Notes under the pieces: model-generated
Told to the model about the DNA's origin: nothing
The model's input: only the letters and a program-made list of their open reading frames with translations
The model's database searches: none
Source: Azolla caroliniana
Taxonomy: Eukaryota; Plantae; Polypodiophyta
Assembly: GCA_043228905.1 (NCBI GenBank)
Contig: JBHGNT010000007.1
Span: 9,672,001-9,736,000, forward strand
Reading direction: 5' to 3'
Length of the DNA: 64,000 nucleotides
Shown: in pieces, positions 11,605-49,676 of the stretch
Layout: the number at the start of each line of letters is the position of its first letter
Numbering within the stretch: the first letter of the stretch is position 1
Program-made: the position numbers and the translations under genes

Positions 11605-11640
11605 TTTTCTTTTCTGTGTCGTTTTGCTTTGATACAAATT

Positions 11641-24711: not shown

Positions 24712-24784
24712 TCCATTGTAGTCTAGTTGGTTAGGATACTCGGCTTTCACCCGAGCGACCCGGGTTCAAGTCCCGGCAATGGAA
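24712..24784 (+). tRNA. tRNA-Glu(TTC), perfect consensus
   Basis: Identical to the 73-nt consensus. Confidence 0.9.
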
Positions 24785-25327: not shown

Positions 25328-25400
25328 TCCATTGTAGTCTAGTTGGTTAGGATACTCGGCTTTCACCCGAGCGACCCGGGTTCAAGTCCCGGCAATGGAA
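25328..25400 (+). tRNA. tRNA-Glu(TTC), perfect consensus
   Basis: Identical to consensus. Confidence 0.9.
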
Positions 25401-26363: not shown

Positions 26364-26436
26364 TCCATTGTAGTCTAGTTGGTTAGGATACTCGGCTTTC
26401 ACCTGAGCGACCCGGGTTCAAGTCCCGGCAATGGAA
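26364..26436 (+). tRNA. tRNA-Glu(TTC), G30-T40 wobble variant
   Basis: Anticodon stem CTCGG/CTGAG, otherwise consensus. Confidence 0.82.
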
Positions 26437-26804
26437 ATATCAAGTCTAGTTCAGGTGGGAGACATCTTAGACGAAAAAAGTCTCATAATTAACAAATACA
26501 AGACATAAAACCTTGTGGTGATATAATCTATATGTAGTGGGTTACAACGGTTGCCTCGAATTGGAAATATCGATACGTATCGAATTTGAAAGGATAATAC
26601 CTGTTGAAAAACATGAAACGTCTTATATGACTTGCTAGACCGAAAGCGTCTCATGTTACTTGCGCACTTAAAATTAAGTCTTACCATAGACATCTAATTA
26701 AATATTGCCTGTTAGAATTATTCACTCTATTCCTTATCATTGAGGAATCTTGCGTTTTTGCGATTTATGATTATAAAGAATCCATGGTGATGAGAAACAG
26801 CCTT

Positions 26805-27070
26805 AACCCGACCTTTGAGAATCTATGTTCAGACGTTGTACAATGTTCAGCGTGATTCTCAACATGCCCCCTCAAGCTCAACTCGGGTAGTCTCCTTTCG
26901 GTTGATGTCCGCTTCGGCTCGTACCCGGTTCGTACAGTTTCTGATTTTTGATTGTATTCCCCTTAAAATTGACAAGTCACAGATTGTCAATCCAAGGTCA
27001 GACATGAATTGCCGAAGCTTGTCGGCTCCTAAGGCTTTCGTGAATATGTCGGCCGTTCGAAGATTGTGTT
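26805..27070 (-). mobile_element. ~265-bp copia fragment (RNase H end, PPT, LTR start) of the E0 family
   Basis: Homologous to ~4010-4320 (gattctcaaca.gccccct.aagctcaactcggg; gacatgaattgccgaagcttgtcggctcc). Confidence 0.85.
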
Positions 27071-28873
27071 AATTATCAAATTAAATCTTGCCATAAATAT
27101 CTAAATAAATATTGCATGTTTGATTTATTCACGCTATTCCTAATCATTGAGGAATCTTGCGTTTCTACAATTTATGGTTAATTAAGATTTTATTTTATTT
27201 TAGAGAAAGAGCATTCAACTTTATCAACTCCGTACTTCATTGTAGTCTAGTTGGTTAGGATACTAGGCTTTCACCCGAGCAACCCAGGTTCAAGTCCCGA
27301 CAATGGAAACAACAAGTCTAGTTCAGGTTGGAGACATCTTTGACAGAAAAAGTCTGATAATTAACAAATACAATACATAAAACCTTGTGGTGACATAATC
27401 TACATGTAGTGGGTTACAACGGTTGCCTCGAATTCAAAATATCCATACGTATCGAATTTGAAAGGATAATACGTGTTGAAAAACCTAAAACATCTGATAT
27501 GACTTGCGAAACCGAAAGCGTCTCATGTGACTTGCGCATTCAAATTTAAGTCTTAGCATAGATAACTAATTAAATCTTGCCTGTTACAGTTATTCATTCT
27601 ATTCCAAATCATTGAGGAATCTCGCGTTTCTGCGATTTATTATTGTAAAGAAGCGATAGTGATGAGAAAGAACCTTTGACTCTATCAACTTTTTACTCCA
27701 TTGTAGACTTGTTGGTTACGATACTCGGCTTTCACCCGAGCAACCCGGGTTCAAGTCCCGGCAATGGAAACAACAAGTCTAGTACAGGTGGGAGACATCT
27801 TAGACGAAAAAAGTCTCATAATTAACAAATAGAAAACATAAAACCTTGTGGTGATATAATCTACATGTAGTGGGTTACAACGGTTGCCTCGAATTCGAAA
27901 TATCGATACATATCGAATTTGAAAGGATAATACCTGTTGAAAAACATAAAACGTCTTATATGACTTCCTAGACCTAAAGCGTCTTTTGTGGCTTGCGCAT
28001 TCAAAATTATGTCTTAGCATACATATCTAATTAAATGTTACCTGGTAGAATTATTCACTCTATTCCTAATCATTAAGGAATCTTGCATTTTTGCGATTTA
28101 TGATTATAAAGAATCGATGGTGATGAGAAAGAGCTTTCAATTCTATCAATTCCGTACTCGATTGTAGTCTAGTTGGTTAGGATACTCGGCTTTCACCCGA
28201 GCGACCCGGGTTCAAGTCCCGACAATGGAAATATCAAGTCTAGTTCAGGTTGCAGACATCTTAGACGAAAAAAGTTTCATAATTAACAAATCCAAGACAT
28301 AAAACCTTGTGGTGACATAATCTACATGTAGTGGATTACAACGGATGCCTCGAATTCGAAATATCCATACGTATCGAATTTGAAAGGATAATACATGTTT
28401 AAAAAACTAAAACATCTCACGTGACTTGCTCATTCAAAATTAAGTCTTAGCATAGATATCTAATTAAATCTTGCCGGTTAGAATTATTCACTCTATTCCT
28501 AATCATTGAGGAATATTTCGTTTTTGCAATTTATGATTGTAAAGAATCGATGGTGATGAGAAACAGCCTTCGACTCTATCAATTCCGAACTCCATTGTAG
28601 TCTAGTGGGTTAGGATACTCGGCTTTCACCAAAGTGACCCGGGTTCAAGTCCCGACAATGGAAACAACAAGTCTAGTTCAGGTTGCACACATCTTAAACG
28701 AAATAAGTCTCATAATTAACAAATACAAGACATAAAAGCTTGATGTGCATAATCTACATGTTACTCGGTTACAACGGTTGCCTAATCATTGAGGAATCTT
28801 GCGTTTCTGCGATTTATTATTGTAAAGAATCGATGGTGATGAGAAAGTGCCTTCAACTCTATCAATTCCGTAC

Positions 28874-28946
28874 TCCATTGTAGTCTAGTTGGTTAGGATA
28901 CTCGGCTTTCACCCGAGCGACCCGGGTTCAAGTCTCGGCAATGGAA
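28874..28946 (+). tRNA. tRNA-Glu(TTC)
   Basis: Consensus except one G-T pair in the T stem. Confidence 0.8.
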
Positions 28947-29488
28947 ATATCAAGTCTACTTTAGGTTTGAGACATCTTAGACGAAAAATCTCTCATAATT
29001 AACAAATACAACACATAAAACCTTGTGCTGACATAATCTACATGTGGATAGGATAGTCGGCTTTCACCCGAGCGACCCGGGTTCAAGTGTTCGCAATGGA
29101 AACAACAAGTCTAGTTCAGGTTGGAGACATCTTAGACAAAAAAAGTCTCAGAATTAACAAATACAAGACATAAAACCTTGTGGTGACATAATCTACCTGG
29201 CGTGGGTTGCAACGGATGCCTCGAATTCAAATATCTATTCGTATCGAATTTGAAAGTATAATATGTGTTGAAAAACCTAAAAAGTCTCATATTACTTACG
29301 AAACCTAAAGCGTCTCATGTTACTTGTGCACTTAAAATTAAGTCTTACCATAGACATCTAATTAAATCTTGCCTGTTAGAATTATTCACTCTATTCCTAA
29401 TCATTGTGGAATCTTGCGTTTCTGCGATTTATGGTTGTAAAGAATCGATGGTGATGAGAAAGAGCCTTCAACTCTATCAACTCTGTAC

Positions 29489-29561
29489 TCCATTGTAGTC
29501 TAGTTGGTTAGGATACTCGGCTTTCACCCGGGCGACCCGGGTTCAAGTCCCGGCAATGGAA
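29489..29561 (+). tRNA. tRNA-Glu(TTC)
   Basis: Consensus except one T-G pair in the anticodon stem. Confidence 0.8.
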
Positions 29562-31232
29562 ACAACAAGTCTAGTTCAGGTTGGACACATCTTAAATGAA
29601 ATAAGTCTCATAATTAACAAATACAAGACATAAAAGCTTGTTCTGCATAATCTACATGTACTCGGTTACAACGGTTGGCTAATCATTGAGGAATCTTGCG
29701 TTTCTGCGATTTATTATTGTATAGAAGCGATGGTGATGAGAAAGAACCTTTGACTCTATCAACTTTGTACTCCATTGTAGTCTAATTGGTTAGGATACTC
29801 AGCTTTCACCCGAGCGTCCCGGGTTCAAGTCCCGGCAATGGAAACAACAAGTCTAGTACATGTGGGAGACATCTTAGACTGAGAAAAAAGGTCTCATAAT
29901 TAACAAATACAAGACATAAAACCTTGTGGTGATATAATCTACATGTAGTGGGTTACAACGGTTGCCTCGAATTCGAAATATCGATACGGATCGAATTTGA
30001 AAGGATAATACCCGTTGAAAAAATAAAACGTCTTATATGACTTGCTAGACCTAAAGCGTCTTTGTCGATTGCGCATTCAAAATTATGTCTTAGCATACAT
30101 ATCTAATTAAATGTTGCCTGGTAGAATTATTCACTCTATGACTTGCTAGACCTAAAGCGTCTTTGTCGATTGCGCATTCAAAATTATGTCTTAGCATACA
30201 TATCTAATTAAATGTTGCCTGGTAGAATTATTCACTCTATTCCTAATTAGTGGGGAATCTTGCGTTTCTGCGATTTATGGTTGTAAAGAATCGATGGTAA
30301 TGAGAAAAAGCCTTCAAGATTATCAACTTCGTACTCCATTGTAGTCTAGTTGGTTAGGATACTCAGCTTTCACCCGAGCGACCCGGGTTCAAGTCCCGGC
30401 AATGGAAATATCAAGTCTAGTTCAGGTTGGAGACATCTTAGACGAATAATCTCGCATAATTAACAAATACAACATATAAAACCTTGTGGTGACATAATGT
30501 ACATGTGGATAGGATAGTCGGCTTTCACCTGAGCGACCCGGGTTCAAGTCTTCGCAATGGACACAACAAGTCTAGTTCAGGTTGGAGACATCTTACACGA
30601 AAAAAGTCTCATAATTAACAAATACAAGACATAAAACCTTGTGGTGACATAATCTACATGGAGTGGGTTACAACGGATGCCTCGAATTCAAAATATCCAT
30701 ATGTATCGAATTTGAAAGTATAATATGTGTTGAAAAAATTAAAAAATCTCATATTACTTATGAAACCTAAAGCGTCTCATGTTACTTGTGCACTTAAAAT
30801 TAAGTCTTACCATAGACATCTAATTAAATATTGCCTGTTAGAATTATTCATTCTATTCCGAATCATTGTGGAATCTTGATTCTCTGCGATTTATGGTTGT
30901 AAAGAATCGAGTGTGATGAGGAAGAGCCTTCAACTCTTTCAACTCCGTACTCCATTGTAGTCTAGTTGTTTAGGATACTCGGTTTTCACCCGAGCGACCC
31001 GGGTTCAAGCCCCGGCAATGGAAACAACAAGTCTAGTTCAGGTTTGAGACATCTTAAATGAACTAAGTCTCATAATTAACATATACAAGACATAAAAGAT
31101 TGTTGTGCATAATCTACATTTACTCGGTTACAACGTTTGCCTAATCATTGAGGAATCTTACGTTTCTGCGATTTATTATTGTAAAGAAGCGATGGTGATG
31201 AGAAAGAACCTTTGACTCTATCAACTTTGTAC

Positions 31233-31305
31233 TCCATTGTAGTCTAGTTGGTTAGGATACTCGGCTTTTACCCGAGCGACCCAGGTTCAAGTCCCGGCAA
31301 TGGAA
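31233..31305 (+). tRNA. tRNA-Glu-derived copy with TTT anticodon (probable pseudogene)
   Basis: Loop CTTTTAC; T stem CCAGG/CCCGG mismatch. Confidence 0.55.
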
Positions 31306-33018
31306 ACAACAAGTCTAGTACAGGTGGGAGACATCTTAGACGGAAAAAGTCTCATAATTAACAAATACAAGTTATAAAACCTTGTGGTGATATAATCTAC
31401 ATGTACTGGGTTACAACGGTTGCCTCGAATTCGAAATATCGATACGTATCGAATTTGAAAGGATAATACCTGTTGAAAAACATAAAACGTCTTATATGAC
31501 TTGCTAGACCTAAAGCGTCTTTTCTGGCTTGCGCATTCAAAATTATGTCCTAGCATACATATCTAATTAAATGTTGCTTGGTAGAATTATTCACTCTATT
31601 CCTAATCAGTGGGGAATCTTGCGTTTCTGCGATTTATGGTTGTAAAGAACGACGGTAATGAGAAAGAGCCTTCAAGATTATCAACTTCGTACTGCATTGT
31701 AGTCTAGCTGGTTAGGATACTCGGCTTTCACCCGAGCGACCCGGGTTCAAGTCCCGGCAATGGAAATATCATGTCTAGTTTAGTTTGGAGACATCTTAGA
31801 CGAAAAATCTCTCATAATTAACAAATACAACACATAAAACCTTGTGGTGACATAATCTACATGTGGATAGGATTGTCGGCTTTCACCCGAGCGACTCGGG
31901 TTCAAGTCTTCGCAATGGAAACAACAAGTCTAGTTCAGGTTGGAGACAGGTAAGACGAAAAAAGTCTCATAATTAACAAATACAAGACATAAAACCTTGT
32001 GGTGACACAATCTACATGGAGTGGGTTACAACGGATGCCTCGAATTCAAAATATCCATACGTATCGAATTTGAAAGTATAATATGTGTTGAAAAACCTAA
32101 AAAGTTTCATATTACTTACGAAACCTAAAGCGTCTCATGTTACTTGGGCACTTAAAATTAAGTCTTACCATAGACATCTAATTAAATATTGCCTGTTAGA
32201 ATTATTCAGTCTATTCCTAGTCATTGTGGAATCTTGCGTTTCTGCGATTTATGGTTGTAAAGAATCGATGGTGATGAGAAAGTGCCTTCAACTCTATCAA
32301 TTCCGTACTCCTAATTAGTGGGGAATCTTGCGTTTCTGCGGTTTATGGTTGTAAAGAATCGATGGTAATGAGATAGAGCCTTCAAGATTATCAACTTCGT
32401 ACTCCATTGTAGTCTAGCTGGTTAGGATAGTCGGCTTTCACCCGAGCGTGCCGGGTTCAAGTCCCGGCAATGGAAATATCAAGTCTAGTTTAGGTTGGAG
32501 ACATCTTAGACAAAAAATCTCTCATAATTAACAAATAGAACACGTAAAACCTTGTGGTGACATAATCTACATGTGGATAGGATAGTCGGCTTTCACCCGA
32601 GCGACCTGTGTTCAAGTCTTCGCAATGGAAATATCAAGTCTAGTTCAGGTTGGAGACATCTTAGACGAAAAATCTCTCATAATTAACAAATACAAGACAT
32701 AAAACCTTGTGGTGACATAATCTACATGGAGTGGGTTACAACGGATGCCTCGAATTCAAAATGTCCATACGTATCGAATTTGAAAGTATAATATGTGTTG
32801 AAAAACCTAAAAAGTTTCATATTACTTACGAAACCTAAAGCGTCTCATGTTACTTGGGCACTTAAAATTAAGTCTTACCATACACATCTAATTAAATATT
32901 TCCTGTTAGAATTATTCACTCTATTCCTAGTCATTGTGGAATCTTGCGTTTCTGCGATTTATGGTTGTAAAGAATCGATGGTGATGAGAAAGTGCCTTCA
33001 ACTCTATCAATTCCGTAC

Positions 33019-33091
33019 TCCATTGTAGTCTAGGTGGTTAGGATACTCGGCTTTCACCCGAGCGACCCGGGTTCAAGTCCCGGCAATGGAA
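33019..33091 (+). tRNA. tRNA-Glu(TTC)
   Basis: Consensus except one D-loop substitution. Confidence 0.82.
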
Positions 33092-33536
33092 ACAACAAGT
33101 CTAGTTCAGGATGGAGACATCTTAGACGGGAAAAGTCTCATAATTAACAAATACAAGACATAAAACCTTGTGGTGACATAATCTACATGTAGCGGGTTAC
33201 AACTGTTGCATCGAATTCAAAATATCCATACGTATCGAATTCGAAAGGATAATACGTGTTGAAAAACCGAAAAAGTCTTATATTACTTGCGAAACCTAAA
33301 TCGTGTCATGTTACTTGCGCACTTAAAATTAAGTCTTAGTATAGACATCTAATTAAATCTTGTCATGTTACTTGCGCACTTACAATTAAGTCTTAGCATA
33401 GACATCTAATTAAATCTTGGCTGTTAGAATTATTCACTATTGTCCTAGTCATTAAGGAATCTTGCATTTTTGCGATTTACGATTCTAAAGAATCGATGGT
33501 GATGAGAAAGAGCTTTCAATTCTATTAATTCCGTAC

Positions 33537-33609
33537 TCCATTGTAGTCTAGTTGGTTAGGATACTCGGCTTTCACCTGAGCGACCCGGGTTCAAGTCCCG
33601 GCAATGGAA
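33537..33609 (+). tRNA. tRNA-Glu(TTC), G30-T40 variant
   Basis: CTCGG/CTGAG stem. Confidence 0.82.
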
Positions 33610-34585
33610 ATATCAAGTCTAGTTCAGGTTGCAGACATCTTAGACGAAAAAAGTCTCATAATTAACAAATCCAAGACATAAAACCTTGTGGTGACATAAT
33701 CTACATGTAGTGGATTACAACGGATGCCTCGAATTCAAAATATCCATACGTATCGAATTTGGAAGGATAATACGTGTTGAAAAAGCTAAAACATCTCACG
33801 TGCCTTGCGCATTCAAAATTATGTCTTAGCATACAGATCTAATTAAATGTTGCCTGGTAGAATTATTCACTCTATTCCTAATCAGTGGGGAATCTTGCGT
33901 TTCCGCGATATATGGTTGTAAAGAATCGATGGTAATGAGAAAGAGCCTTCAAGATTATCAACTTCGTACTCCATTGTAGACTAGTTGGTTAGGATACTCG
34001 GCTTTCACCCGAGCGACCCAGGTTCAAGTCCCGGCAATGGAAATATCAAGTCTAGTTTAGGTTGGAGACATCTTAGACGAAAAATCTCTCATAATTAACA
34101 AATACAACACATAAAACCTTGTGGTGACATAATCTACATGTGGATAGGATAGTCGGTTTTCACCCGAGCGACTCGGGTTCAAGTCTTCGCAACGGAAACA
34201 ACAAGTCTAGTTCAGGTTGGAGACATCTTAAACGAAAAAAGTCTCATAATTAACAAATACAAGACATAAAACCTTGTGGTGACATAATCTACATGGAGTG
34301 GGTTACAACGGATGCCTCGAATTCAAAATATCCATACGTATCGAATTTGAATGTATAATATGTGTTGAAAAACCTAAAGAGTGTCATATTACTTACAAAA
34401 CCTAAAGCGTCTCATGCTACTTGTGCACTTAAAATTAAGTCTTACCATAGACATCTAATTAAATATTGCCTGTTAGAATTATTCACTCTATTCCTAGTCA
34501 TTGTGGAATCTTGCGTTTCTGCGATTTATGGTTGTAAAGAATCGATGGTGATGAGAAAGTGCCTTCAACTCTATCAATTCCGTAC

Positions 34586-34658
34586 TCCATTGTAGTCTAG
34601 TTGGTTAGGATACTCGGCTTTCACCCGAGCGACCCGGGTTCAAGTCCCGGCAATGGAA
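34586..34658 (+). tRNA. tRNA-Glu(TTC), perfect consensus
   Basis: Identical to consensus. Confidence 0.9.
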
Positions 34659-35103
34659 ACAACAAGTCAAGTTCAGGTTGGAGACATCTTAGACGAGAAA
34701 AGTTTCATAATTAACAAATACAAGACATAAAACCTTGTGGTGACATAATCTACATGTAGCGGGTTACAACTGTTGCATCGAATTCAAAATATCCATACGT
34801 ATCGAATTTGAAAGGATAATACGTGTTGAAAAACCGAAAAAGTCTTATATTACTTGCGAAACCTAAATCGTGTCATGTTACTTGCACACTTAAAATTAAG
34901 TCTTAGCATAGACATCTAATTAAATCTTGTCATGTTACTTGCGCACTTAAAATTAAGTCTTAGCATAGACATCTAATTAAATCTTGGCTGTTAGAATTAT
35001 TCACTCTAGTCCTAATCATTAAGGAATCTTGCATTTTTGCGATTTATGATTCTAAAGAATCGATGGTGATGAGAAAGAGCTTTCAACTCTATTAATTCCG
35101 TAC

Positions 35104-35176
35104 TCCATTGTAGTCTAGTTGGTTAGGATACTCGGCTTTCACCTGAGCGACCCGGGTTCAAGTCCCGGCAATGGAA
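35104..35176 (+). tRNA. tRNA-Glu(TTC), G30-T40 variant
   Basis: CTCGG/CTGAG stem. Confidence 0.82.
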
Positions 35177-35536
35177 ATATCAAGTCTAGTTCAGGGTGCA
35201 GACATCTTAGACGAAAAAAGCCTCATAATTAAAAAATCCAAGACATAAAACCTTGTGGTGACATAATCTACATGTAGTGGATTACAACGGATGCCTCGAA
35301 TTAAAAATATCCATACGTATCGAATTTGAAAGGATAATACGTGTTGAAAAAGCTAAAACATCTCACGTGCCTTGCGCATTCAAAATTATGTCTTAGCATG
35401 CATATCTAATTAAATGTTGCCTGGTAGAATTATTCACTCTATTCCTAATCAGTGGTGAATCTTGCGTTTCCGCGATTTATGGTTGTAAAGAATCGATGGT
35501 AATGAGAAAGAGCCTTCAAGATTATCAACTTCGTAC

Positions 35537-35609
35537 TCCATTGTAGTCTAGTTGGTTAGGATACTCGGCTTTCACCCGAGCGACCCGGGTTCAAGTCCCG
35601 GCAATGGAA
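35537..35609 (+). tRNA. tRNA-Glu(TTC), perfect consensus
   Basis: Identical to consensus. Confidence 0.9.
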
Positions 35610-36895
35610 ATAACAAGTCTAGTTCAGGTTGGACACATCTTAAACGAAATAAGCCTCATAATTAACAAAGACAAGACATAAAAGCTTGTTGTGCATAATC
35701 TACATGTACTCGGTTACAACGGTTGCCTAATCATTGAGGAATCTTGCGTTTCTGCGATTTGTTATAGTAAAGAAGCGATGGTGATGAGAAAGAACCTTTG
35801 ACTCTATGAACTTTGTACTCCATTGTAGTCTAGTTGGTTAGGATACTCGGCTTTCACACGAGCGACCCGGGTTCAAGTCCCGGCAATGGAAACAACAAGT
35901 CTAGTACTGGTGGGAGACATCTTAGACGTAAAAAGTCTCATAATTAACAAATACAAGACATAAAACCTTGTGGTGATATAATCTACATGTAGTGGGTTAC
36001 AACGGTTGCCTCGAATTCGAAATATCGATACGTATCGAATTTGAAAGGATAATACCCGTTGAAAAACATAAAACGTCTTATATGACTTGCTAGACCTAAA
36101 GCGTCTTTTGTGGCTTGCGCATTCAAAATTATGTCTTAGCATACATATCTAATTAAATGTTGCCTGGTAGAATTATTCACTCTATTCCTAATTAGTGGGG
36201 AATCTTGCGTTTCTGCGATTTATGGTTGTAAAGAATCGATGGTAATGAGAAAGAGCCTTCAAGATTATCAACTTCGTACTCCATTGTAGTCTAGTTGGTT
36301 AGGATAGTCGGCTTTCACCCGAGCGACCCGGGTTCAAGTCCCGGCAATAAAAATATCAAGTCTAGTTTAGGTTGGAGACATCTTAGACGAAAAATCTCTC
36401 ATAATTAACAAATACAACACATAAAACCTTGTGGTGACATAATCTACATGTGGATAGGATAGTCGGCTTTCACCCGAGCGACTCGGGTTCAAGTCTTCGC
36501 AATGGAAACAACAAGTCTAGTTCAGGTTGGAGACATCTTAGACGAAAAAAGTCTCATAATTAACAAATACAAGACATAAAACCTTGTGGTGACATAATCT
36601 ACATGGAGTGGGTTACAACGGATGCCTTGAATTCAAAATATCCATACGTATCGAATTTGAAAGTATAATATGTGTTGAAAAACCTAAAGAGTTTCATATT
36701 ACTTACGAAACCTAAAGCGTCTCATGTTACTTGGGCACTTAAAATTAAGTCTTACCATAGACATCTAATTAAATATTGCCTGTTAGAATTATTCACTCTA
36801 TTCCTAGTCATTGTGGAATCTTGCGTTTCTGCGATTTATGGTTGTAAAGAATCGATGGTGATGAGAAAGTGCCTTCAACTCTATCAATTCCGTAC

Positions 36896-36968
36896 TCCAT
36901 TGTAGTCTAGTTGGTTAGGATACTCGGCTTTCACCCGAGCGACCCGGGTTCAAGTCCCGGCAATGGAA
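36896..36968 (+). tRNA. tRNA-Glu(TTC), perfect consensus
   Basis: Identical to consensus; CAA motif at -11. Confidence 0.9.
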
Positions 36969-37413
36969 ACAACAAGTCTAGTTCAGGTTGGAGACATCTT
37001 AGACGAGAAAAGTCTCATAATTAACAAATACAAGACATAAAACCTTGTGGTGACATAATGTACATGTAGCGGGTTACAACTGTTGCTTCAAATTCAAAAT
37101 ATCCATACGTATCGAATTTGAAAGGATAATACGTGTTGAAAAACCGAAAAAGTCTTATATTACTTGCGAAACCTAAATCGTGTCATGTTACTTGCGCACT
37201 TAAAATTAAGTCTTAGCATAGACATCTAATTAAATCTTTTCATGTTACTTGCGCACTTAAAATTAAGTCTTAGCATAGATATCTAAATAAATCTTGCCTG
37301 TTAGAATTATTCACTCTAGTCCTAATCATTAAGGAATCTTGCATTTTTGCGATTTATGATTATAAAGAATCGATGGTGATGAGAAAGAGCTTTCAACTCT
37401 ATTAATTCCGTAC

Positions 37414-37486
37414 TCCATTGTAGTCTAGTTGGTTAGGATACTCGGCTTTCACCTGAGCGACCCGGGTTCAAGTCCCGGCAATGGAA
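37414..37486 (+). tRNA. tRNA-Glu(TTC), G30-T40 variant
   Basis: CTCGG/CTGAG stem. Confidence 0.82.
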
Positions 37487-37846
37487 ATATCAAGTCTAGT
37501 TCAGGGTGCAGACATCTTAGACGAAAAAAGCCTCATAATTAACAAATCCAAGACATAAAACCTTGTGGTGACATAATCTACATGTAGTGGATTACAACGG
37601 ATGCCTCGAATTCAAAATATCCATACGTATCGAATTTGAAAGGATAATACGTGTTGAAAAAGCTAAAACATCTCACGTGCCTTGCGCATTCAAAATTATG
37701 TCTTAGCATACATATCTAATTAAATGTTGCCTGGTAGAATTATTCACTCTATTCCTAATCAGTGGGGAATCTTGCGTTTCCGCGATTTATGGTTGTAAAG
37801 AATCGATGGTAATGAGAAAGAGCCTTCAAGATTATCAACTTCGTAC

Positions 37847-37919
37847 TCCATTGTAGTCTAGTTGGTTAGGATACTCGGCTTTCACCCGAGCGACCCGGGT
37901 TCAAGTCCCGGCAATGGAA
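37847..37919 (+). tRNA. tRNA-Glu(TTC), perfect consensus
   Basis: Identical to consensus. Confidence 0.9.
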
Positions 37920-38128
37920 ACAACAAGTCTAGTTCAGGTTGGACACATCTTAAACGAAATAAGTCTCATAATTAACAACGACAAGACATAAAAGCTTGTT
38001 GTGCATAATCTACATGTACTCGGTTACAACGGTTGCCTAATCATTGAGGAATCTTGCGTTTCTGCGATTTGTTATAGTAAAGAAGCGATGGTGATGAGAA
38101 AGAACCTTTGACTCTATGAACTTTGTAC

Positions 38129-38201
38129 TCCATTGTAGTCTAGTTGGTTAGGATACTCGGCTTTCACCCGAGCGACCCGGGTTCAAGTCCCGGCAATGGA
38201 A
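38129..38201 (+). tRNA. tRNA-Glu(TTC), perfect consensus
   Basis: Identical to consensus. Confidence 0.9.
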
Positions 38202-40062
38202 ACAACAAGTCTAGTACAGGTGGGAGACATCTTAGACGTAAAAAGTCTCATAATTAACAAATACAAGACATAAAACCTTGTGGTGATATAATCTACATGT
38301 AGTGGGTTACAACGGTTGCCTCGAATTCGAAATATCGATACGTATCGAATTTGAAAGGATAATACCCGTTGAAAAACATTAAACGTCTTATATGACTTGC
38401 TAGACCTAAAGCGTCTTTTGTGGCTTGCGCATTCAAAATTATTTCTTAGCATACATATCTAATTAAATGTTGCCTGGTAGATTTATTCACTCTATTCCTA
38501 ATTAGTGGGGAATCTTGCGTTTCTGCGATTTATGGTTGTAAAGAATCGATGGTAATGAGATAGAGCCTTCAAGATTATCAACTTCGTACTCCATTGTAGT
38601 CTAGTTGGTTAGGATAGTCGGCTTTCACCCGAGCGTGCCGGGTTCAAGTCCCGGCAATGGAAATATCAAGTCTAGTTTAGGTTGGAGACATCTTAGACGA
38701 AAAATCTCTCATAATTAACAAATACAACACATAAAACCTTGTGGTGACATAATCTACATGTGGATAGGATAGTCGGCTTTCACCCGAGCGACCCGGGTTC
38801 AAGTCTTCGCAATGGAAATATCAAGTCTAGTTCAGGTTGGAGACATCTTAGATGAAAAATCTCTCATAATTAACAAATACAAGACATAAAACCTTGTGGT
38901 GACATAATCTACATGGAGTGGGTTACAACGGATGCCTCGAATTCAAAATGTCCATACGTATCGAATTTGAAAGTATAATATGTGTTGAAAAACCTAAAAA
39001 GTCTCATATTACTTACGAAACCTAAAACGTCTCATGTTACTTGGGCACTTAAAATTAAGTCTTTCCATAGACATCTAATTAAATATTCCCTGTTAGAATT
39101 ATTCACTCTATTCCTAATCATTGTGGAATCTTGCGTTTCTGCGATTTATGGTTGTAAAGAATCGATGGTGATGAGAAAGAGCCTTCAACTCTATCAACTC
39201 CGTACTCCATTGTAGTCTAGTTGGTTAGGATACTCGGCTTTCACCCGAGCGACCCGGGTTCAAGTCCCGATAATGGAAACAACAAGTCTAGTACAGGTTG
39301 GTGACATCTTAGACGAGAAAAGTCTCAGAATTAACAAATACAAGACATAAAACCTTGTGGTGACATAATCTACATGTAGTGGGTTACAACTGTTGCATCG
39401 AATTCAAAATATCCATACATATCGAATTTGAAAGGATAATACGTGTTGAGAAACCGAAAAAGACTCATATTACTTGCGAAACCTAAAGCGTGTCATGTTA
39501 CTTGCGCACTTAAAATTAAGTCTTAGCATAGACATCTAATTAAATCTTGTCATGTTACTTGCGCACTTAAAATTAAGTCTTAGCATAGACATCTAATTAA
39601 ATCTTGCCTGGTAGAATTATTCACTCTAGTCCTAATCATTAAGGAATCTTGCATTTTTGCGATTTATGATTATAAAGAATCGATGGTGATGAGAAAGAAC
39701 TTTCAAATCTATCAATTCCGTACTCCATTGTAGTCTAGTTGGTTAGGATACTCGGCTTTCACTTGAGCGACCCGGGTTCAAGTCCCGGCAATGGAAACAA
39801 CAAGTCTAGTACAGGTGGGAGACATCTTAGACGAAAAAAGTCTCATAATTAACAAATACAAGACATAAAACCTTGTGGTGATATAATCTACATGTAGTGG
39901 GTTACAACGGTTGCCTCGAATTCGAAATATTGATACGTATCGAATTTGAAAGGATAATACCTGTTGAAAAACATTAAACGTCTTATATGACTTGCTAGAC
40001 CTAAAGCGTCTTTTGTGGCTTGCGCATTCATAATTATGTCTTAGCATACATATCTATGTAAA

Positions 40063-40536
40063 TGTCACTCTCTCTCTTACGCACTGTATAGAAGTTACAC
40101 CAATAACTCTATCATAATACACATTGAGTTTGCCCTAGCTCATATTTATACTAATATGACTTTCGGGCTATTTAAAAATATAGCCCTAGTGGGCTCTCCG
40201 GAACATATTTACATATATGTCCCTTTCATCCGATGACAGGTTCTCACCGGGCCTGTAACATCCGCTTCTCACCGGGTCTTCCTTGCCGGGTACTCGTCAT
40301 CCGGTTCTTGCCAGGTCTTCCGTTGCCGGGTACTCCACATCCAATTCTCAACAGGTCTACAACACCCGGTTCTCACCGGGTCTTCCTTGCCGGGTACTCG
40401 TCATCCAGTTCTCACCGGGTTTTCCGTTACCGGGTACTCCACATCTGGTTCTCACCAGGTTTACCACATCCGGTTCTCACCGGGTCTTCCTTGCCGGGTA
40501 CTTTGTATCCCATCCGGAGGGACGGAGATCCTAACA
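40063..40536 (-). mobile_element. Duplicated partial LTR of E2 retaining the true LTR 5' terminus
   Basis: Near-identical to 11924-12310 and extends to ...ggagggacggagatcctaaca (minus strand TGTTAGGATC...), followed by array spacer agcgtctcat. Confidence 0.9.
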
Positions 40537-43500
40537 AGCGTCTCATACGACTTGCGCATTCAAAATTAGTTCTTAGCATAAATATCTAATTAAATCTTGT
40601 CGGCTAGAATTATTCACTTTATTCCTAGTCATTGAGGAATCTTTTAATTTGATAAAAAATTCCTCTTCTATAACATAAAGCTTAACATATTAGCCGATTG
40701 AACTCAACTTCACTCGTATCGAAAGTACGAGGTATATAATTTAATTAAAGTAATGACATTTCATGACAATTCATTCAAGGGGATAAAATCACATTTCACT
40801 TTAAAGGAAACATAGATCATGCTCTCCTTTAGTAAACGAAGAACCACGAAGGCAACACTAGGATATCATGTGTCATCTTGCATTTCCACAATTTATGGTT
40901 AATTGAGATTTTTTTTTTTTAGAGAAACACCCTTAAACTTTGTCAACTCCATACTCCGTAATTGTCTACTTGGTTAGGATACTCGGCTTTCACCCGAGCA
41001 ACCCGGGTTGAAGACTCGGCAATGGGAACATTAAGTCTAGTTCAAGTTGCATACATTATATATGAAAAAAGTCTCACAATTGATAAATACAAGACATAAA
41101 ACCTTGTCGTGACATAATCTGCATGTAGTGGGTTACAATGGTTGCCTCATAATCTACATGTAGTGGGTTACAATGGTTGCCTCCAATTCCAAATATCCAT
41201 ACATATCGAATTTGAAAGGATAATACGTGTTTAAAAACCTAAAGTGTCTCATGTGACTTGCGCATTCAAAAATAAGTCTTCCATAAATATCTAATTAAAT
41301 CTTGTAGGTTAGAATTATTCACTCTATTCCTAATCATTGAGGAATCTTTTAATTTGATAAAAAAATCGTCTTCTATAACATATTAGCCGATTGAACTCAA
41401 TTTCACTCGTATCGAATGTACGAGGTCTATTGTTTAATTAAAGTAATGACATTTCTGGACAATTCATTCAAGGGGATAAAATCACATTTCACTTAAAAGG
41501 AAATATACTTGATGCTCTCCTTTAGTAAACGAAGAATCACGAAGGCAACACTAGGATATCATGTGCCATCTTGCGTTTCCGCAATTTATGGTTGATTGAG
41601 ATTTTATTTTATTTTAGAAATACATCCTTCAACTTTGTTAACTCCATACTCCATTGTAATCTAGTTGGTTAAAATCTAGTCTCATGTTACTTGCGCATTG
41701 AAAATTTGGTCTTACCATAAACATCTAATTAAATCTTGTCGTTTAGAATTATTTAATCTATTCCTAATCATTGAGGAATCTTGCGTTTCTTCAATTTATG
41801 GTGAATTGAGATTTTATTTTATTTTCGAGAAACGTCCTTCAACTTTATCAGCTTCATACTCCATTGTACTCTAGTTGGTTAGGATACTCGGCTTTCACCC
41901 GAGCGACCCGTGTTCAAGTCTCGACAATGGAAATATAAGGTCTAGTTCAGGTTGCTTCTTATACAAGAAAAGTCTCATAATTGACAAATAAAAGACATAA
42001 AACCTTGTGGTGACATATTTTGCATATAGTGGGTTACAATGGTTGCCTCCTATTCAAAATATCCATACGTATCAAATTTGAAAACATAATACGTGTTGAA
42101 AAACCTCAACCGTCTCATGTTACTTACACATTCAAAAGTTGGTCTTACCATAAATATCTAATTAAATCTTGTCGGTTAGAATTATTCACTCTACTCCTAA
42201 TCATTGAGGAATCTTCTAATTTGATAAAGAAATCATCTTCTATAACATAAAGCTTAATATATTAGCATATTGAACGCAATTTCACTCGTATCAAAAGTAC
42301 GAGGTATATTGTTTAATTAAAGTAACAACATTTCTCGACAATTCATTCAAGGGGATAAAATCAAATTTCACAAAGGAAACATACTTGATGCTCTCCTTTA
42401 GTAAACGAAGAACCACGAAGGCAAAACTAGGATGTAATGTGTCATCTTCCGTTTCCACAATTTCTGGTTAACTGAGATTTTATTTGATTTTACAGAAAAA
42501 TCCTTCAACTTTGTCAATTCCATATTCCATTGTAGTCTAGCTAGGTAGGATACTCGGCTTTCAACCGAGTGACCCGGGTTCATGTCCCCGCCATGGAAAC
42601 ATCAAGTGTAGTTCAGGTTGCATGACCTACGAAAAATGTCTCATAATTGACAAATACAAGACATAAAACCTTGTGGTGATATAATATACATGTAGTTGGT
42701 TACAATGGTAGCCACCAATTCCCAATTCTCAATTGTATTCAAGGGGATAAAATCACATTTCACTTAAAAGGAAACATAGTTGATGTTCTCCTTTAGTAAA
42801 CGAAGAACCACGAAGGCAACAGTAGGATATCATGTGTCATTTTGTGTTTCCGCAATTTATGGTTAATTGAGATTTTATTTTATTTTAGAGAAATATCCTT
42901 CAACTTTGTCAACTCAATACTCCATTGTAGTCTAGCTGGTAAGGATAGTCGGGTTTCACCCGAGCGAGCCGTGTTCAAGTCTCGGCAATGGAAATACCAA
43001 GTCTAGTTCAAGTTGGATACATCTTATACAAAAAAAGTCTCATAATTGACAAATACAAGACATAAAACCTTGTATTCACATACACAATCTACATGTAGTG
43101 GGTTACAATGGTTGCCTTCAATTCTAAATATCGCTACGTATCGAATTTGAAAGGATAATACGTGTTGAAAAACCTAAAGCGTCGCATGTGACTTGGGCAT
43201 TCAAAATTAAGTTTTACAATAAATATCTAACTAAATCTTGGCAGTTAGAATTATTCACTCTGTTCCTAATCATTGCGAAGTCTTGCATTTCTACAATTTA
43301 TGATTAATTGAGATTTTATTTTATTTTAGAGAAACATCCTTCAACTTTGTCAACTCCATACTCCACTGTAGTCTAGTTGGTTAGGAAACTCAACTTTCAC
43401 CCGAGCAAACCGGGTTCAAGGCCCGGTAATGGAAACATCAAATCTAGTTCAAGGTGCATACATCTTATATGAAAAAAGTCTCATAATCATTCAGGAATCT

Positions 43501-46500
43501 TTTAGTTTTATAAAAATATCGTCTTCTATAACATAAAGCTTTACATATTAGCCGATTGAACTCAATTTCCCTCGTATCATAAGTAGGAGGTATATTGTTT
43601 AATTAAAGTAACGACATTTTCCGATAATTCATTCAAGGGGATAAAATCACATTTCATTTAAAACGAAACATGCTTGATCATCTCCTTTAGTAAACGAAGA
43701 ACCACGAAGGCAACACTAGGATATCATGTGTCATGTTGCGTTTCTGCAATTTATGGTTAATAAAGATTTTATTTTATTTTAGAGAAACATCCTTCCGTTT
43801 ATCAACTCCATGCTCCATTGTAGTCTAGTTCGTTAGGATACTCGGCGTTCACCCGAGCGAACCGGGTTCATATCCGGGCAATGGAAATATCAAGTGTAGT
43901 TCAAGCTGCAATTTATTGTTAATTGACATTTTATTTTATTTTCGAGAAACATCCTTCAACTTTATCAACTCCATACTCCATTGTAGTCTAGTTGGTTAGG
44001 ATACTAGTGTTTCACCCGAGTGACCCGGGTGCAAGTCCCGACAATGGAAACATCAAGTCTAGTTCAGGTTGCATCCTGTATGAAAAAAGTCGCATAATTG
44101 ACAAATACAAGACATAAAACCTTGTCGTGACATAATCTACATGTAGTGGGTTACAATGGTTGCCTCCAATTCAAAATACGTGTTGACAAACCTAAAGCGT
44201 ATCATGTGACTTGCGCATTCAGAATTAAGTCTTACCATAAATATCTACTTAAATCTTGGCGGTTTGAATTATTCACTCTATTCCTAATCATTGAGGAATC
44301 TTGCATGTAGTGGGTTACAATGGTTGCCTCCAGTTCAAAATATCCATACGTATCGAATTTGAAAGGATTATACGTGTTGAAAAACCTAAAGCTTCTCATG
44401 TGACTAGTGCATTCAAAATTAAGTCTTAGCATAAATATCTAATTAAATCTTGCCAGAAATATCTAATTAAATCTTGCATGTTAGAATTGTTCACTCTATT
44501 CCTAATCATTGAGGAATCCTGCGTTTCAACAATTTATGGTTAATTGAGATTTTATTTTATTTTATAGAAAGAGTCTTCCACTCTATCAACTTAGTACTCC
44601 ATTGTAGTCTAGTTGGTTAGGATACTTGGCTTTCACCCAAGCGACCCGGGTTCAAGTCCCGGTAATGGAAACATCAAGTGTAGTTCAGTTGCATCTTCTA
44701 CAAAAAAAGTGTCATAATTAACAAATACAAGACATAAAACCTTGTGGTGACATAATCTACATGTAGTGGGTTACAATGGTTTCCTACAATTCAAAATATT
44801 CATACGTATCGAATTTGAAAGGATAATACATGTTGAAAAACCTAAAGTGTCTCATGTGACTAGTGCATTCAAAATTAAGTCTTAGCATCAATATCTAATT
44901 AAATCTTGCCATAAATATTTAATTAAATTTTGCCTATTAGAATTATTCACTCTATTCCTAATCATTGTGGAATCTTGCGTTTCAACAATTTATGGTTAGT
45001 TGAGATTTTATTTTATTTTAAAGAAAGATGCTTCAACTATATTAACTCTATACTCCATTGTAGTCTAGGTTGGTAGGATACTCAGCTTTCACCCCAGCAA
45101 CCCGGGTTCAAGTACCGGCCATGGAAACAGCAAGTCTAGTTCAGGTTGCGTCTTGTAAAATAAAATTCTCATAATTAATAATTACAAGACATATAACCTT
45201 GTGGTGACATAATTTACATGTTGTGGGTTACAATGGTTGGCTCCAATTAGAAATATCCATACGTATCGAATTTGAAAGGATAATACGTGTTGGAAAACGT
45301 AAAACGTCTCATGTGACTTGCGCATTCAAAATTAAGTCTTACCATAAATATTTTATTAAATCTTGATTCTTGGAATTATTAACTATATTCCTAATCATTG
45401 AGGAATGTTGCGTTTCTACAATTGATGGTTAATTAAGATTTTATTTTATTTTAGAGAAACATCCTTCAACTCTATCAACTCTGTACTCCATTCTAGTCTA
45501 GTTGCTTAGGATAGTTGGCTTTCACCCGATCGACCCGGGTTCAAGTCCCGACAATCGAAACATCAAGTCTAGTTCAAGTTGCATCTTGCACAAAAAAGTC
45601 TCATAATTGATAAATACAAGGCATAAAACCTTGTGGTGACTTAATCTACATGTAGTGGGTTACCATGTTTGCCTGTAATTCAAAATATCCATACGTATCG
45701 AATTCGAAAGGATAATACGTGTTGAAAAACCTAAAGCGTCTCATATGACTTGACCATTCTAAATTAAGTCTTACAATAAATATCTAATTAAATCTTGGCT
45801 GTTAGAATTATTCACTCTATTCCTAATCATTGAGGAATCTTGCGTTTCTGCAATTTATCATTAATTGAGATTTTATTATATTTTAGAGAAATATCCTTTA
45901 ATATTATTTTAGAGAGACAACAAGTCTAGGTCAAGTTCTATCTTGTACGAAAAAGTCTCATAATTAACAAATACAAGACATAAAAGCTTGTGGTGACATC
46001 ATCTACATGTAGTGGGTTACAATGGTTGCCCCCAATTCGAAATATCCATACGTATCGAATTGGAAAGGATAATACGTGTTGAAAAACCTGAAGTGTCTCA
46101 TGTGACTTGCGTAGTCAAAATTAAGTCTTAGCATAAATATGTAATTAAATCTTGCATGTTAGAATTATTCACTCTATTCCTAATGATTTAGAAATCTTGC
46201 GTTTCTGCAATTTATGGTTAATTGAGATCTTATTTTATTTTAGAGAAAGATACTTCAACTCTATCAACTCTGTAGTCCATTGTAGTCTAGTTGATTAGGA
46301 TAATCGGCTTTCACTCGAGCGGCGCGGGTTCAAGTCCTGGCAATCGAAACATCAAGTCTAGTGCAAGTTGGATCTTGTACGAAAAAGTCTCATAATTGAC
46401 AAATACAAGGCATAAAACTTGGTAGTGATATATTCTACATGTAGTGGGTTACAATGGTTGCCTCCAATTCAAAATATCCATTTCGAATTTGAAAGGATAA

Positions 46501-49500
46501 TACTTGTTAAAAAACCTAAAGCGTCTCATGTGACTTGTGCATTTAAAATTAAGTCTTAGCATAAGTATTTAATTAAATCTTGCATGTTAGAATTATTCAC
46601 TCTATTCCTAATCATTGGGGAATCTTTCGTTTCCGCAATTTATGGTTAATTGAGATTTTATTTTATTTTAGAGAAAGATCCTTCAACTCTATTAACTCCG
46701 TACTCCATTGTAGTCTAGTTGGTTAGGATATTCGGCTTTCACCCGAGCGACCCGGGTTCAAGTCCCGACAATGGAAACAATAAGTCTAGTTCGGGTTGCA
46801 TCTTGTAAAAAAAAAGTCTCATAATTAGGAAATACGAGACATAAAACGTTGTTGTGATATAATCTACATGAAGTGGCTTAACATGGTTTCCTCCAATTTC
46901 AAATATCCATGCGTATCGTATTGGAAAGGATAATACGTGTTGAAAAATCTAAAGCGTTTCATGTGACTAGTGCATCCAAAATTAAGTCTTAGCATAAATA
47001 TCTAATTAAATCTTGCCATAAATATCTAATTAAATCTTGCATGTTAGAATTATTCACTCTATTCCTAATGATTGAGGAATCTTGCGTTTCTGCAATTTAT
47101 GGTTAATTGAGATTTTATTGTATTTTAGAGAAAGAGCTTTCAAATCTATCAACTCCGTACTCCATTGTAGTCTAGTTTGTTAGGATACACGGCTTTTAGC
47201 CGAGCGACCCCGGTTCAAGTCCTGGGAATGGGAACAACAAGTCTAGTTCAGGTTGGATACATCTTGTAAAAAAAAAGTCTCATAATTAACAAATACAAGA
47301 CATAAAACGTTGTGGTGACATAATCTACATGTAGTGGGTTAAAATGGTTGCCTCCAATTCGAAATATCCATACCTATCGAATCGGAAAGGATAATACGTG
47401 TTAAAAAACCTCAAGCGTCTCATGTGACATGCGCATTAGAAATTACGTCTTAGCATAAATATGTAATTAAATCTTGCCTGTTAGAATGATTCACTATTTT
47501 CATAATCATTGAGGAATCTTGCGTTTCTGCAATTTATGGTTAATGGAAATTTATTTCATTTTAGAGAAAGATTCTTCAACTTTATCAACTCCATACTCCA
47601 TTGTAGTTTAGTTGGTTAGGATACTCGACTTTCATCCAAGCGACCCGAGTTCAAGTCCCAGCAATGCAAACAACAAGTCTAATTTAGGTTGGATACATCT
47701 TAGACGAAAAATGTCTCATAATTAACAAAGACAAGACATAAAACCTTGTAGTGACATAATCGACATGTAGTGGGTTAAAATGGTTGCCTCCAATTCAAAA
47801 TATCCATACGTATCGAATTTGAAAGGATAATACGTGTTGAAAAACCTAAAACGTCTCATGTGACGAGTGTATTCAAAATTATGTCTTACCATAAATATCT
47901 AATTAAATCTTGCCTGTTAGACTTATTGAGTCTATTCCTAATCATTGAGGAGTCTTGCATTTTTGAAATTTATGGTTAATTGAGATTTTATTTTATTTTA
48001 GAGAAAGATGCTTCAACTATATCAATTCCGTACTCCATTGTAGTCTGGTTGGTTAGGATACTCAGCTTTCACTCGAGCGACCCGGGTTCAAGTCCCGGTA
48101 ATGGAAACATCAAGTCTAGTTCAGGCTGCTTCTTCTACTAAAAAAGTCTCATAATTAAAATATACAAGACGTAAAACCTTGTGGTGACATAATCTACATG
48201 TAGTGGATTACAATGGTTGCCTATAATTCAAACTATCTATTAAATCTCGCGTTTCTGCAATTCATGGTTAATGGAAATTTTATTTTATTTTAGAGTAAGA
48301 TCCTTCAACTCTATTAACGCCGTACTCCATTATAGTTTAGTTGGTTAGGATACCCGCCTTGTAAAAAAAAAGTCTCATAATTAACAAATACAACACATAG
48401 ACCCTTGTGGAGACATAATCTACATTTAGTGGGTTACAATGGTTGCCTACAATTCAAAATATTCATACGTATCGAATTTGAAAGGATAACACGTGTTGAA
48501 AAACCTAAAGCGTCTCATGTGACGAGTGCATTCAAAATTAAGTCTTAGTATAAATATCTAATTAAATCTTCCCATAAATATTTAAGTAAATCTTGCCTGT
48601 TAGAATTATTGAGTCTATTCCAAATCATTGAGGAGTCTTGTGTTTTTGAAATTTATGGGTAATTGAGATTTTCTCTTATTTTAGAAAAATATGCTTCAAC
48701 TAGATCAACTCCGTATTCCATGGTAGTCTAGTTGGGTAGGATACTCGGCTTTCAACCGAGCAACCCAAGTTCAAGTATCGGCAGTGGAAACAACATGTCT
48801 AGTTCATGTTGCATCTTGTAAAAAATAAGTCTCATAATTAATAAATACAAGACATAAAACCTTCTGTTGACATAATCTACATGTAGTGGGTTACAATGGT
48901 TGGCTCCAATTCGAAATATCCATACGTATCGAATTTGAAAGGATAATACGTGTTGGAAAAGTAATGCGTCTCATGTGACTTGCGAATTCAAAATTACGTC
49001 TTTGCATAAATCTCTAATTAAATCTTGCTTGTTGGAATTATTAACTATATTCCTAATCATTAACAAATATTGCGTTTCTCCAATTTATGGTTAATTGAGA
49101 TCTTATTTTATTTTAAAGAATCATCCTTCAACTCTATCAACTCTGTACTCCGTTGTAATCTTGTTGGTTAGATACTCGTCTTTCACTTGAGCGACCCGTG
49201 TTCAAGTCCCGGTAATGGAAACAACAAGTCTAGTTTAGGCTGCATCTTGTAAAAAAAAAGTCTCATAACTAACAAATACAAGACATAGACCCTTGTAGAG
49301 ACATAATCTACATTTAGTGGGTTACAATGGTTGCCTACAATTCAAAATATTCATACGTATCGAATTTGAAAGGACAATACGTGTTGAAAAACCTAAAGTG
49401 TCTCATGTGACTAGTGCATTCAAAATTAAGTCTTAGCATAAATATCTAATTAAATCTTGCCAGAAATTTCTAATTAATTCTTGCATGTTAAAATTATTCA

Positions 49501-49603
49501 CTCTATTCCTAACCATTGAGGAATCTTTCGTTTCTGCAATTTATGGTTAATTGAGATTTTATTTTATTTTAGAGAAAAACTTTCAACTCTATCAACTCTA
49601 TAC

Positions 49604-49676
49604 TCCATTGTAGTCTAGTTGGTTAGGATACTCGGCTTTCACCCGAGCGACCCGGGTTCAAGTCCCGGCAATGGAA
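49604..49676 (+). tRNA. tRNA-Glu(TTC), perfect consensus
   Basis: Identical to consensus. Confidence 0.9.

What the first reader, a model, noticed from the sequence alone, without database searches (positions are those of the whole stretch)
36280..38419. Young array lacks Pol III terminators: predicted polycistronic pre-tRNA
Seen: no T-run follows the tRNAs. The 616-, 433- and 282-bp monomers contain no TTTT on the sense strand although A4-A6 runs are abundant. Per 2310-bp unit only two conserved T-runs exist (T5 at 37344-37348, T4 at 38416-38419). The TTTTATTTTATTTT tract of old monomers is replaced in young ones by GTAAAGAATCGATGGTGAT. Known: Pol III stops at runs of 4 or more T, and RNase P/Z can excise tRNAs from multimeric precursors. 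Inference: initiation at 37414 would read through 37847 and 38129 as a ~1-kb tricistronic precursor, releasing three tRNAs plus spacer RNAs - a natural polycistronic tRNA-spacer system.
Basis: partly seen in the sequence, partly recalled or inferred. Interest (0 to 1): 0.75.

Follow-up and report, generated by a model that had tools for sequence, protein, structure and literature searches.

The report
Terminator-less plant tRNA-Glu tandem arrays
A plant genome holds about 100 tandem glutamate-tRNA genes, none followed closely by the usual stop signal for their polymerase, and related arrays in other assemblies lack it too, so active copies would make unusually long, sometimes multi-tRNA precursors, although most copies are likely silent and no RNA evidence was available.

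Summary
0 of 100 full tRNA-Glu copies have a T>=4 run within 28 nt of the gene, and 37414-38415 is free of T>=4 across three tRNAs. Three corrections. The 2310-bp unit has three T-runs, not two. Old monomers also lack a proximal terminator; their T-tract lies 48-35 bp before the next tRNA. The per-monomer T4 deficit is weak (P 0.045-0.33) and is shared by old spacers. New T-runs recur in young spacers, two in 12 and 10 copies, so only 23 of 57 young genes head a multi-tRNA stretch. New here: six metagenome contigs carry the same tRNA, five visibly in arrays, with diverged, weakly homologous trailers; 19 of 20 copies lack a proximal T-run. The trait is therefore old, not a young innovation. Best reading: a satellite-like tRNA homocluster, likely mostly silenced as in Arabidopsis, whose active copies would give long-trailer precursors, with polycistrons as a by-product. 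No usable RNA data. My five look-ups in the scan's notes showed no earlier report of this. Interest 0.4.

The parts
5717..59189 (+). Tandem tRNA-Glu(TTC) homocluster: 93 ARAGORN genes; 117 tRNA-like copies by BLAST, of which 100 are full length (57 young-type, 43 old-type); interrupted by LTR-retrotransposon pieces
36280..38589 (+). 2310-bp higher-order repeat of five monomers (616, 518, 433, 282, 461 bp); 2272 of 2310 aligned positions identical to the preceding unit
36280..36352 (+). tRNA-Glu(TTC) with a mutated 3' acceptor end (49.3 bits)
36451..36506 (+). 5'-truncated tRNA copy (positions 17-72) inside the 616-bp monomer
36844..36862 (+). Young-type segment standing where old monomers carry the T-tract, just upstream of the next tRNA
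36896..36968 (+). Intact modal tRNA-Glu(TTC), 66.9 bits
37237..37240 (+).
37344..37348 (+). T5, a newly gained run shared by 10 young copies
37414..37486 (+). tRNA-Glu(TTC), one substitution (63.5 bits); head of the T>=4-free stretch 37414-38415
37847..37919 (+). Intact tRNA-Glu(TTC), 66.9 bits
38068..38073 (+). Broken T-run (T3-G-T2), a candidate weak non-canonical terminator inside the proposed tricistron
   Evidence: class described for human Pol III in PMC3141230, where this variant was poor in vivo
38129..38201 (+). Intact tRNA-Glu(TTC), 66.9 bits
38221..38298 (+). Trailer stretch weakly homologous to trailers of the related arrays (best nhmmer hit, E 0.0075)
38416..38419 (+). T4 shared by 12 young copies; first T>=4 after 37414
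17257..17270 (+). Example of the old-type T-tract (three T4 runs), 48-35 bp upstream of the tRNA at 17305 and about 310 nt downstream of the previous tRNA
60920..63904 (+). Flanking Tnt1-like Ty1/copia polyprotein; shows a land-plant, transposon-rich setting

Best explanation
This is a satellite-like tandem cluster of plant tRNA-Glu genes with no T-run close behind any copy; most copies are likely silenced, and those that fire would each start their own transcript and make a long-trailer precursor, with multi-tRNA precursors arising only as a by-product. Shown: the array, the missing proximal T-run in old and young copies and in related arrays elsewhere, a single swap of the distal T-tract in the young family, repeated regain of T-runs, and decay of many copies. 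Inferred: amplification by unequal crossing-over and segmental duplication; DNA methylation; Pol III running a few hundred nt (sometimes further) until a T4/T5, a weak site, a fail-safe release or the next gene's bound factors stops it; RNase P and RNase Z releasing the tRNA; the spacer RNA being degraded.
For: 0 of 100 copies have a proximal T4, and 19 of 20 copies on six other contigs lack one within 25 nt, so the trait predates the young family. The T4 deficit is no stronger in young spacers than in old spacers minus the tract. T-runs occur in young spacers at 18 flanking contexts, two of them in 12 and 10 copies. Only 29 of 57 young and 5 of 43 old copies keep all stem pairs and the anticodon by ungapped comparison; 21 of 28 and 39 of 52 distinct stem substitutions break a pair, against 103 of 126 possible, which looks close to neutral decay. 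CpG sites in the tRNA mutate 3.5-5 times as often as A/T sites; 10 of 10 CpG sites against 12 of 23 CHH sites show deamination-type changes in old copies (P 0.013; young 7/10 vs 8/23, P 0.13). Copia elements flank and interrupt the array. Arabidopsis tDNA clusters are methylated and silent in tested organs (PMC7544208), with root-tip reactivation of one cluster (PMC12308677, title; cited in PMC13437025). Some copies are probably still useful: the tRNA differs by 0-4 of 72 nt between assemblies while trailers are 50-65% identical to the window's.
Against: No RNA, methylation or Pol III occupancy data exist for this locus, so silencing is by analogy. The tRNA body varies less than its flanks (A/T sites 0.011 vs 0.043-0.069 in young copies). 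Shared variants are depleted in the tRNA in the first 35 young copies (P 0.009), though not in all 57 (P 0.13) or in 26 old copies (P 0.87); this suggests that expanding lineages were functional. Eight representative trailers all lack T4 in their first 140 nt (product of shuffle probabilities 0.0005). They are not independent, but active avoidance of T-runs near the tRNA is not excluded.
Confidence: 0.5

Rival explanations
1. Regular polycistronic source of tRNA: Pol III routinely reads through two or more tRNA-Glu genes, and RNase P/Z cut them out of one long precursor.
For: 23 of 57 young genes head a T>=4-free stretch with 2-5 complete tRNAs; 40 of 57 do so if T5 is required. 27 of 57 spacers ending at a young gene hold no T4. 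In a related array family with alternating TTC and CTC genes, 2 of 4 TTC-to-CTC spacers have no T4. T4 is a weak terminator for yeast Pol III (PMC9278858).
Against: T-runs are regained and spread. 14 of 17 spacers in the related loci and 39 of 39 spacers ending at an old-type gene hold a T>=4. Known tRNA-tRNA dicistrons have spacers of a few nt and rely on the upstream promoter (PMC2566860), whereas here each gene has its own upstream region.
Confidence: 0.17
2. Dead satellite: the array is never transcribed, the tRNA body is kept uniform by gene conversion from working tRNA-Glu genes elsewhere, and the terminator is absent because nothing selects for it.
For: Stem-breaking changes run near the neutral share. 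There are truncated copies and three Lys(TTT) anticodon mutants. Fixed differences between old and young consensus are 0 of 72 in the tRNA and 9 of 228 in alignable flank, which is not significant (P 0.12).
Against: The same tRNA-plus-homologous-trailer arrangement persists across assemblies whose trailers have diverged to near-random identity, with intact TTC and CTC genes alternating in one family.
Confidence: 0.15
3. tRNA-led dicistronic gene: the trailer is itself a functional RNA released by RNase Z, as in plant tRNA-snoRNA genes or Yarrowia tRNA-RUF70.
For: A stretch about 20-95 nt behind the tRNA is detectably shared between the window and another array family (E 0.008-0.04; best reversed-sequence decoy 1.0 bit against 13.0 for that model). 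In angiosperms the few tDNAs without poly(T) were reported to lead snoRNAs (Michaud et al., as cited in 10.1101/2020.04.13.039131).
Against: No Rfam family other than tRNA reached a gathering score in the unit or in six loci. Folding z is 0.11 and 0.21 for a young and an old spacer. Spacers vary by large deletions and internal duplications. Models from two of the three sub-groups of related trailers did not beat decoys.
Confidence: 0.1
4. This plant lineage terminates Pol III close to the tRNA without a T>=4 run, so the genes are ordinary monocistronic units.
For: Only 53.7% of non-angiosperm land-plant tDNAs have T>=4 within 25 nt, against 91.6% in angiosperms (PMC13437025 Fig. S6). Non-canonical terminators exist for human Pol III (PMC3141230).
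Against: The first 70 nt behind the tRNA are A-rich and, in four of the five spacers, hold not even T3. The 53.7% may itself reflect arrays like this one (inference). The lineage of the window is not established.
Confidence: 0.08

Closest known systems
Plant tDNA homoclusters (Arabidopsis Pro and Ser-Tyr-Tyr, maize Ile/Ala; PMC13437025, PMC7544208, PMC11700998, PMC12652284)
   Same: Head-to-tail copies of one isotype at sub-kb spacing, formed by tandem and block duplication, in transposon-rich DNA.
   Different: Those clusters keep poly(T) tails (median longest run about 5 in Arabidopsis clusters), whereas here 0 of 100 do. This cluster is larger (about 100 genes in 53 kb) with higher-order repeats. 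The 5-genes-in-5-kb summary sheet of PMC13437025 lists no land-plant Glu homocluster, but no fern was in that chromosome-level set.
Dicistronic and tricistronic Pol III genes: yeast tandem tRNAs, Yarrowia tRNA-5S and tRNA-RUF70, plant tRNA-snoRNA (PMC2566860)
   Same: No terminator after the leading tRNA; release by tRNA-processing nucleases is predicted.
   Different: Known spacers are about 3-17 nt and the downstream gene depends on the upstream promoter. Here spacers are 209-543 nt, each gene has its own upstream region, and no co-transcript is shown.
Human tDNAs with distant terminators and long 3' trailers (PMC3141230)
   Same: tRNA genes with no T>=4 nearby, giving long-trailer pre-tRNAs and partial stops at broken T-runs.
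   Different: Those are dispersed single genes with in vitro and ChIP support. Here the arrangement is a tandem array with no transcript data.
tRNA-derived SINEs and tRNA-bearing TRIMs (Helenus; PMC10886601)
   Same: An old-type unit reads as tRNA head, about 300-nt body and T-rich end, at SINE-like length.
   Different: The head here is a complete tRNA (66.9 bits), whereas Helenus is reported not to fold as a functional tRNA. Dispersed copies, target-site duplications, PBS and PPT were not tested.

Membership tests
Plant tDNA homocluster | At least 5 tRNA genes within 5 kb, one isotype (PMC13437025) | tested here: met
   93 genes in 53 kb, 90 Glu(TTC) and 3 Lys(TTT) point mutants
Plant tDNA homocluster | Downstream poly(T) retained, as reported for Arabidopsis clusters (typical, not part of the definition) | tested here: not met
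   0 of 100 copies with T4 within 28 nt
Plant tDNA homocluster | DNA methylation and transcriptional silence | tested here: inconclusive
   Only an indirect mutation signature: CpG excess significant in old copies, not in young
Polycistronic Pol III tRNA unit | No terminator between successive tRNA genes | tested here: inconclusive
   Met for 23 of 57 young and 2 of 43 old genes under the T>=4 rule, not for the rest
Polycistronic Pol III tRNA unit | Very short intergenic spacer, downstream gene without its own initiation region | tested here: not met
   Spacers 209-543 nt; two CAA triplets within 25 nt upstream of 36896 and 37847
Polycistronic Pol III tRNA unit | Single primary transcript shown and processed to mature tRNAs | not testable with these tools
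   No RNA holder was listed; see Tried and rejected
tRNA-ncRNA dicistronic gene | Recognisable, structured RNA directly behind the tRNA | tested here: not met
   No Rfam match; folding z 0.11 and 0.21; only weak trailer homology
tRNA-derived SINE or TRIM | Degenerate tRNA head | tested here: not met
   Modal copy is a full tRNA with all stem pairs
tRNA-derived SINE or TRIM | Dispersed copies with target-site duplications, or LTR/PBS/PPT layout | not tested
   No whole genome was held

The most novel reading that the evidence does not exclude
A plant lineage (possibly ferns) keeps an old family of large tRNA-Glu arrays that have dispensed with proximal Pol III terminators and routinely make 0.4-2.4-kb precursors holding one to five tRNAs separated by long spacers. 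RNase P and Z would cut these into mature tRNAs and spacer RNAs. That would be a natural long-spacer polycistronic nuclear tRNA system, the counterpart of engineered tRNA-spacer cassettes (recalled), and might help explain why only about half of non-angiosperm tDNAs show a poly(T) tail.
Probability: 0.2. Interest if true: 0.68.

Novelty: new variant of a known kind. Interest (0 to 1): 0.4.

Why it matters
Plant tRNA gene clusters described so far keep their poly(T) terminators. A family of about 100-copy arrays without them, seen in several assemblies with a conserved tRNA body, means one of three things: Pol III makes kilobase-scale pre-tRNAs there, it terminates in an undescribed way, or large blocks of annotated high-confidence tRNA genes are silent repeats that inflate gene counts. 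Array-specific spacers make this testable with one RT-PCR or long-read experiment. It also warns against reading missing terminators in repeat arrays as evidence of polycistronic design.

Tried and rejected
No whole genome was held, so dispersed tRNA genes of this organism could not serve as a control. RNA: no RNA holder was listed; the two runs added by species label laid 0 records on 36280-38589 and on 13500-23600. These blanks are no evidence either way. Polarity of the T-tract swap: the L001/L003/L005 family has a T4-T7 run at about -39, but upstream alignments to the window are not significant (z up to 2.4), and the L004/L007/L008 family has none within 100 nt. The young consensus keeps several CpGs that the old consensus has lost, so it is not simply derived from present old copies. 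The pooled P of 0.003 for T4 depletion was rejected as pseudo-replicated. Spacer as known or structured RNA: rejected. Literature: nine searches returned no description of terminator-less plant tRNA-Glu arrays; the library omits most subscription papers. PMC6786969 (passages and supplement search) showed nothing on nuclear tRNA arrays. Entamoeba tRNA arrays are a recalled parallel; one search gave no paper on them. The per-species bars of Fig. S6 in PMC13437025 were not readable as text and may bear on the fern question.
Full report
Setting. The window is land-plant nuclear DNA. Copia ORFs flank and interrupt the array, and the best relatives are Tnt1-like polyproteins at 55% identity or less. 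From 5717 to 59189 runs a head-to-tail array of tRNA-Glu(TTC): 93 ARAGORN genes, three of them Lys(TTT) point mutants, and 117 BLAST copies, of which 100 are full length. There are two monomer families, 43 old and 57 young. The finding is one 2310-bp higher-order repeat, 98.4% identical to its neighbour; blocks of 4-6 kb recur 15-29 kb apart at 95-98% identity.

Observation. 37414-38415 has no T>=4. The swap of the T-tract is real, but the tract lies 48-35 bp before the next tRNA. Old copies therefore lack a proximal terminator too: 0 of 100 full copies have T4 within 28 nt, and old copies reach their first T4 at a median 282 nt. Per spacer, the T4 deficit against dinucleotide shuffles has P 0.045-0.33. 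Five old spacers without the tract give 0.05-0.33. The pooled P of 0.003 counts homologous copies as independent. The young state is one event amplified, on an already T4-poor ancestral spacer.

Is read-through maintained? Under the T>=4 rule, 34 of 57 young genes are monocistronic, 15 head two tRNAs, 6 three, 1 four and 1 five; under a T5 rule 40 of 57 head two or more; 41 of 43 old genes are monocistronic. T-runs occur in young spacers at 18 flanking contexts, two of them in 12 and 10 copies, so terminators are not being purged. A broken T-run lies at 38068 inside the proposed tricistron. Such sites can stop human Pol III partly, although this variant was poor in vivo (PMC3141230, passages). 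The spacer has no Rfam match and folds no better than shuffles.

Are the genes alive? The evidence is mixed. By ungapped comparison, 29 of 57 young and 5 of 43 old copies keep all pairs and the anticodon (copies with indels count as broken), and stem substitutions break pairs at close to the neutral share. Deamination-type changes are enriched at CpG in old copies (P 0.013) but not significantly in young copies (P 0.13). On the other side, the tRNA body varies 4-6 times less than flanks at A/T sites in young copies and about 2 times less in old. Shared variants are depleted in the tRNA among the 35 young copies left of 41000 (P 0.009), but not among all 57 (P 0.13) or among the 26 old copies left of 30000 (P 0.87). 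Old-versus-young fixed differences are 0/72 against 9/228 (P 0.12; the swapped segment was left out).

Related loci. An exact scan with 44 nt of the tRNA found 8 loci on 6 metagenome contigs. Five contigs hold two or more tandem copies, mostly at about 0.5-0.7 kb spacing; in L003 the spacer repeats up to the contig end. Eight intact copies differ from the window's tRNA by 0-4 of 72 nt, while trailers are 50-65% identical; the scan itself forced the first 44 nt to match in at least one copy per contig. A profile of the L004/L006/L007/L008 trailers finds the window's trailers at the matching offset (E 0.008-0.04, best decoy 1.0 bit); the profiles of the other two sub-groups did not beat decoys. 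Of 20 copies, 19 have no T4 within 25 nt; the exception is a decayed copy, and all other first runs lie 93 nt or more away. 14 of 17 spacers do hold a T>=4 before the next copy. One family alternates TTC and CTC genes, with 2 of 4 TTC-to-CTC spacers free of T4. The shared, old feature is thus a long trailer. Terminator-free runs over several tRNAs are sporadic elsewhere and commonest in this window's young family.

Mechanism. Each gene carries its own internal promoter (established knowledge of Pol III type 2 genes; the boxes are intact in the modal copy). By analogy with Arabidopsis clusters (PMC7544208, passages), most copies are likely methylated and silent. Cluster reactivation in root tips is known (PMC12308677, title and passages). 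A copy that fires would run into the spacer until a T4/T5, a weak site or a fail-safe release; in yeast T4 is weak and Sen1 removes read-through polymerases (PMC9278858, passages). RNase P and Z would free the tRNA. Multi-tRNA precursors would then occur where no stop intervenes, but nothing indicates design. All of these steps are inferred; no RNA data were available.

Comparison. It meets the definition of a plant tDNA homocluster (PMC13437025, sections 7 and 10, passages, supplement file 1 part 1 and searches in files 1 and 5) but lacks the poly(T) tails those clusters keep. 91.6% of angiosperm and 53.7% of non-angiosperm land-plant tDNAs have T>=4 within 25 nt; another survey gives 67-72% within 50 nt for angiosperms (PMC11700998, passages). 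It fails the short-spacer feature of known dicistronic Pol III genes (PMC2566860, passages). Also seen as passages only: PMC13578239, PMC12652284, PMC10886601, PMC6786969, 10.1101/2021.12.21.473619 and 10.1101/2020.04.13.039131. Nine literature searches found no account of such arrays.

Verdict. The most valuable result is that terminator-less tRNA-Glu arrays are an old, shared trait. New variant of a known kind; interest 0.4; probability of routine polycistronic precursors about 0.2.

Noticed in passing
L004 242-2128; L007 351-2797: tRNA-Glu arrays in which TTC and CTC isoacceptor genes alternate, each with its own trailer family; 2 of 4 TTC-to-CTC spacers hold no T4.
   Followed up: partly
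window 38221-38298 and equivalents: A-rich trailer stretch about 20-95 nt behind the tRNA, weakly conserved between the window and the L004/L007/L008 family; function unknown.
   Followed up: partly
window 12311-18050 vs 41710-47474; 18074-23316 vs 45947-51157; 35726-40065 vs 50433-54770: Large internal duplications of the array (95-98% identity) that copy the old-to-young junction and an LTR-like fragment.
   Followed up: partly
window 19316, 31233, 47161: Three copies have mutated to a Lys(TTT) anticodon on a Glu body.
   Followed up: no
window 23749-53521 (ten copies, e.g. 36451-36506): A 5'-truncated tRNA (positions 17-72, keeping the B box) sits 155 bp behind a full gene and has been amplified with the higher-order repeat.
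   Followed up: no
window about 9540-12300, 40060-40530, 59330-64000, 1-5200: Copia elements and LTR-like pieces with 40/104-bp and 26/56-bp internal tandem repeats interrupt and flank the array; the element at 59330 onward has a long open polyprotein frame and looks young.
   Followed up: no
L003 1-1300: The array edge abuts non-repetitive DNA that looks like an intron-containing gene on the minus strand.
   Followed up: no
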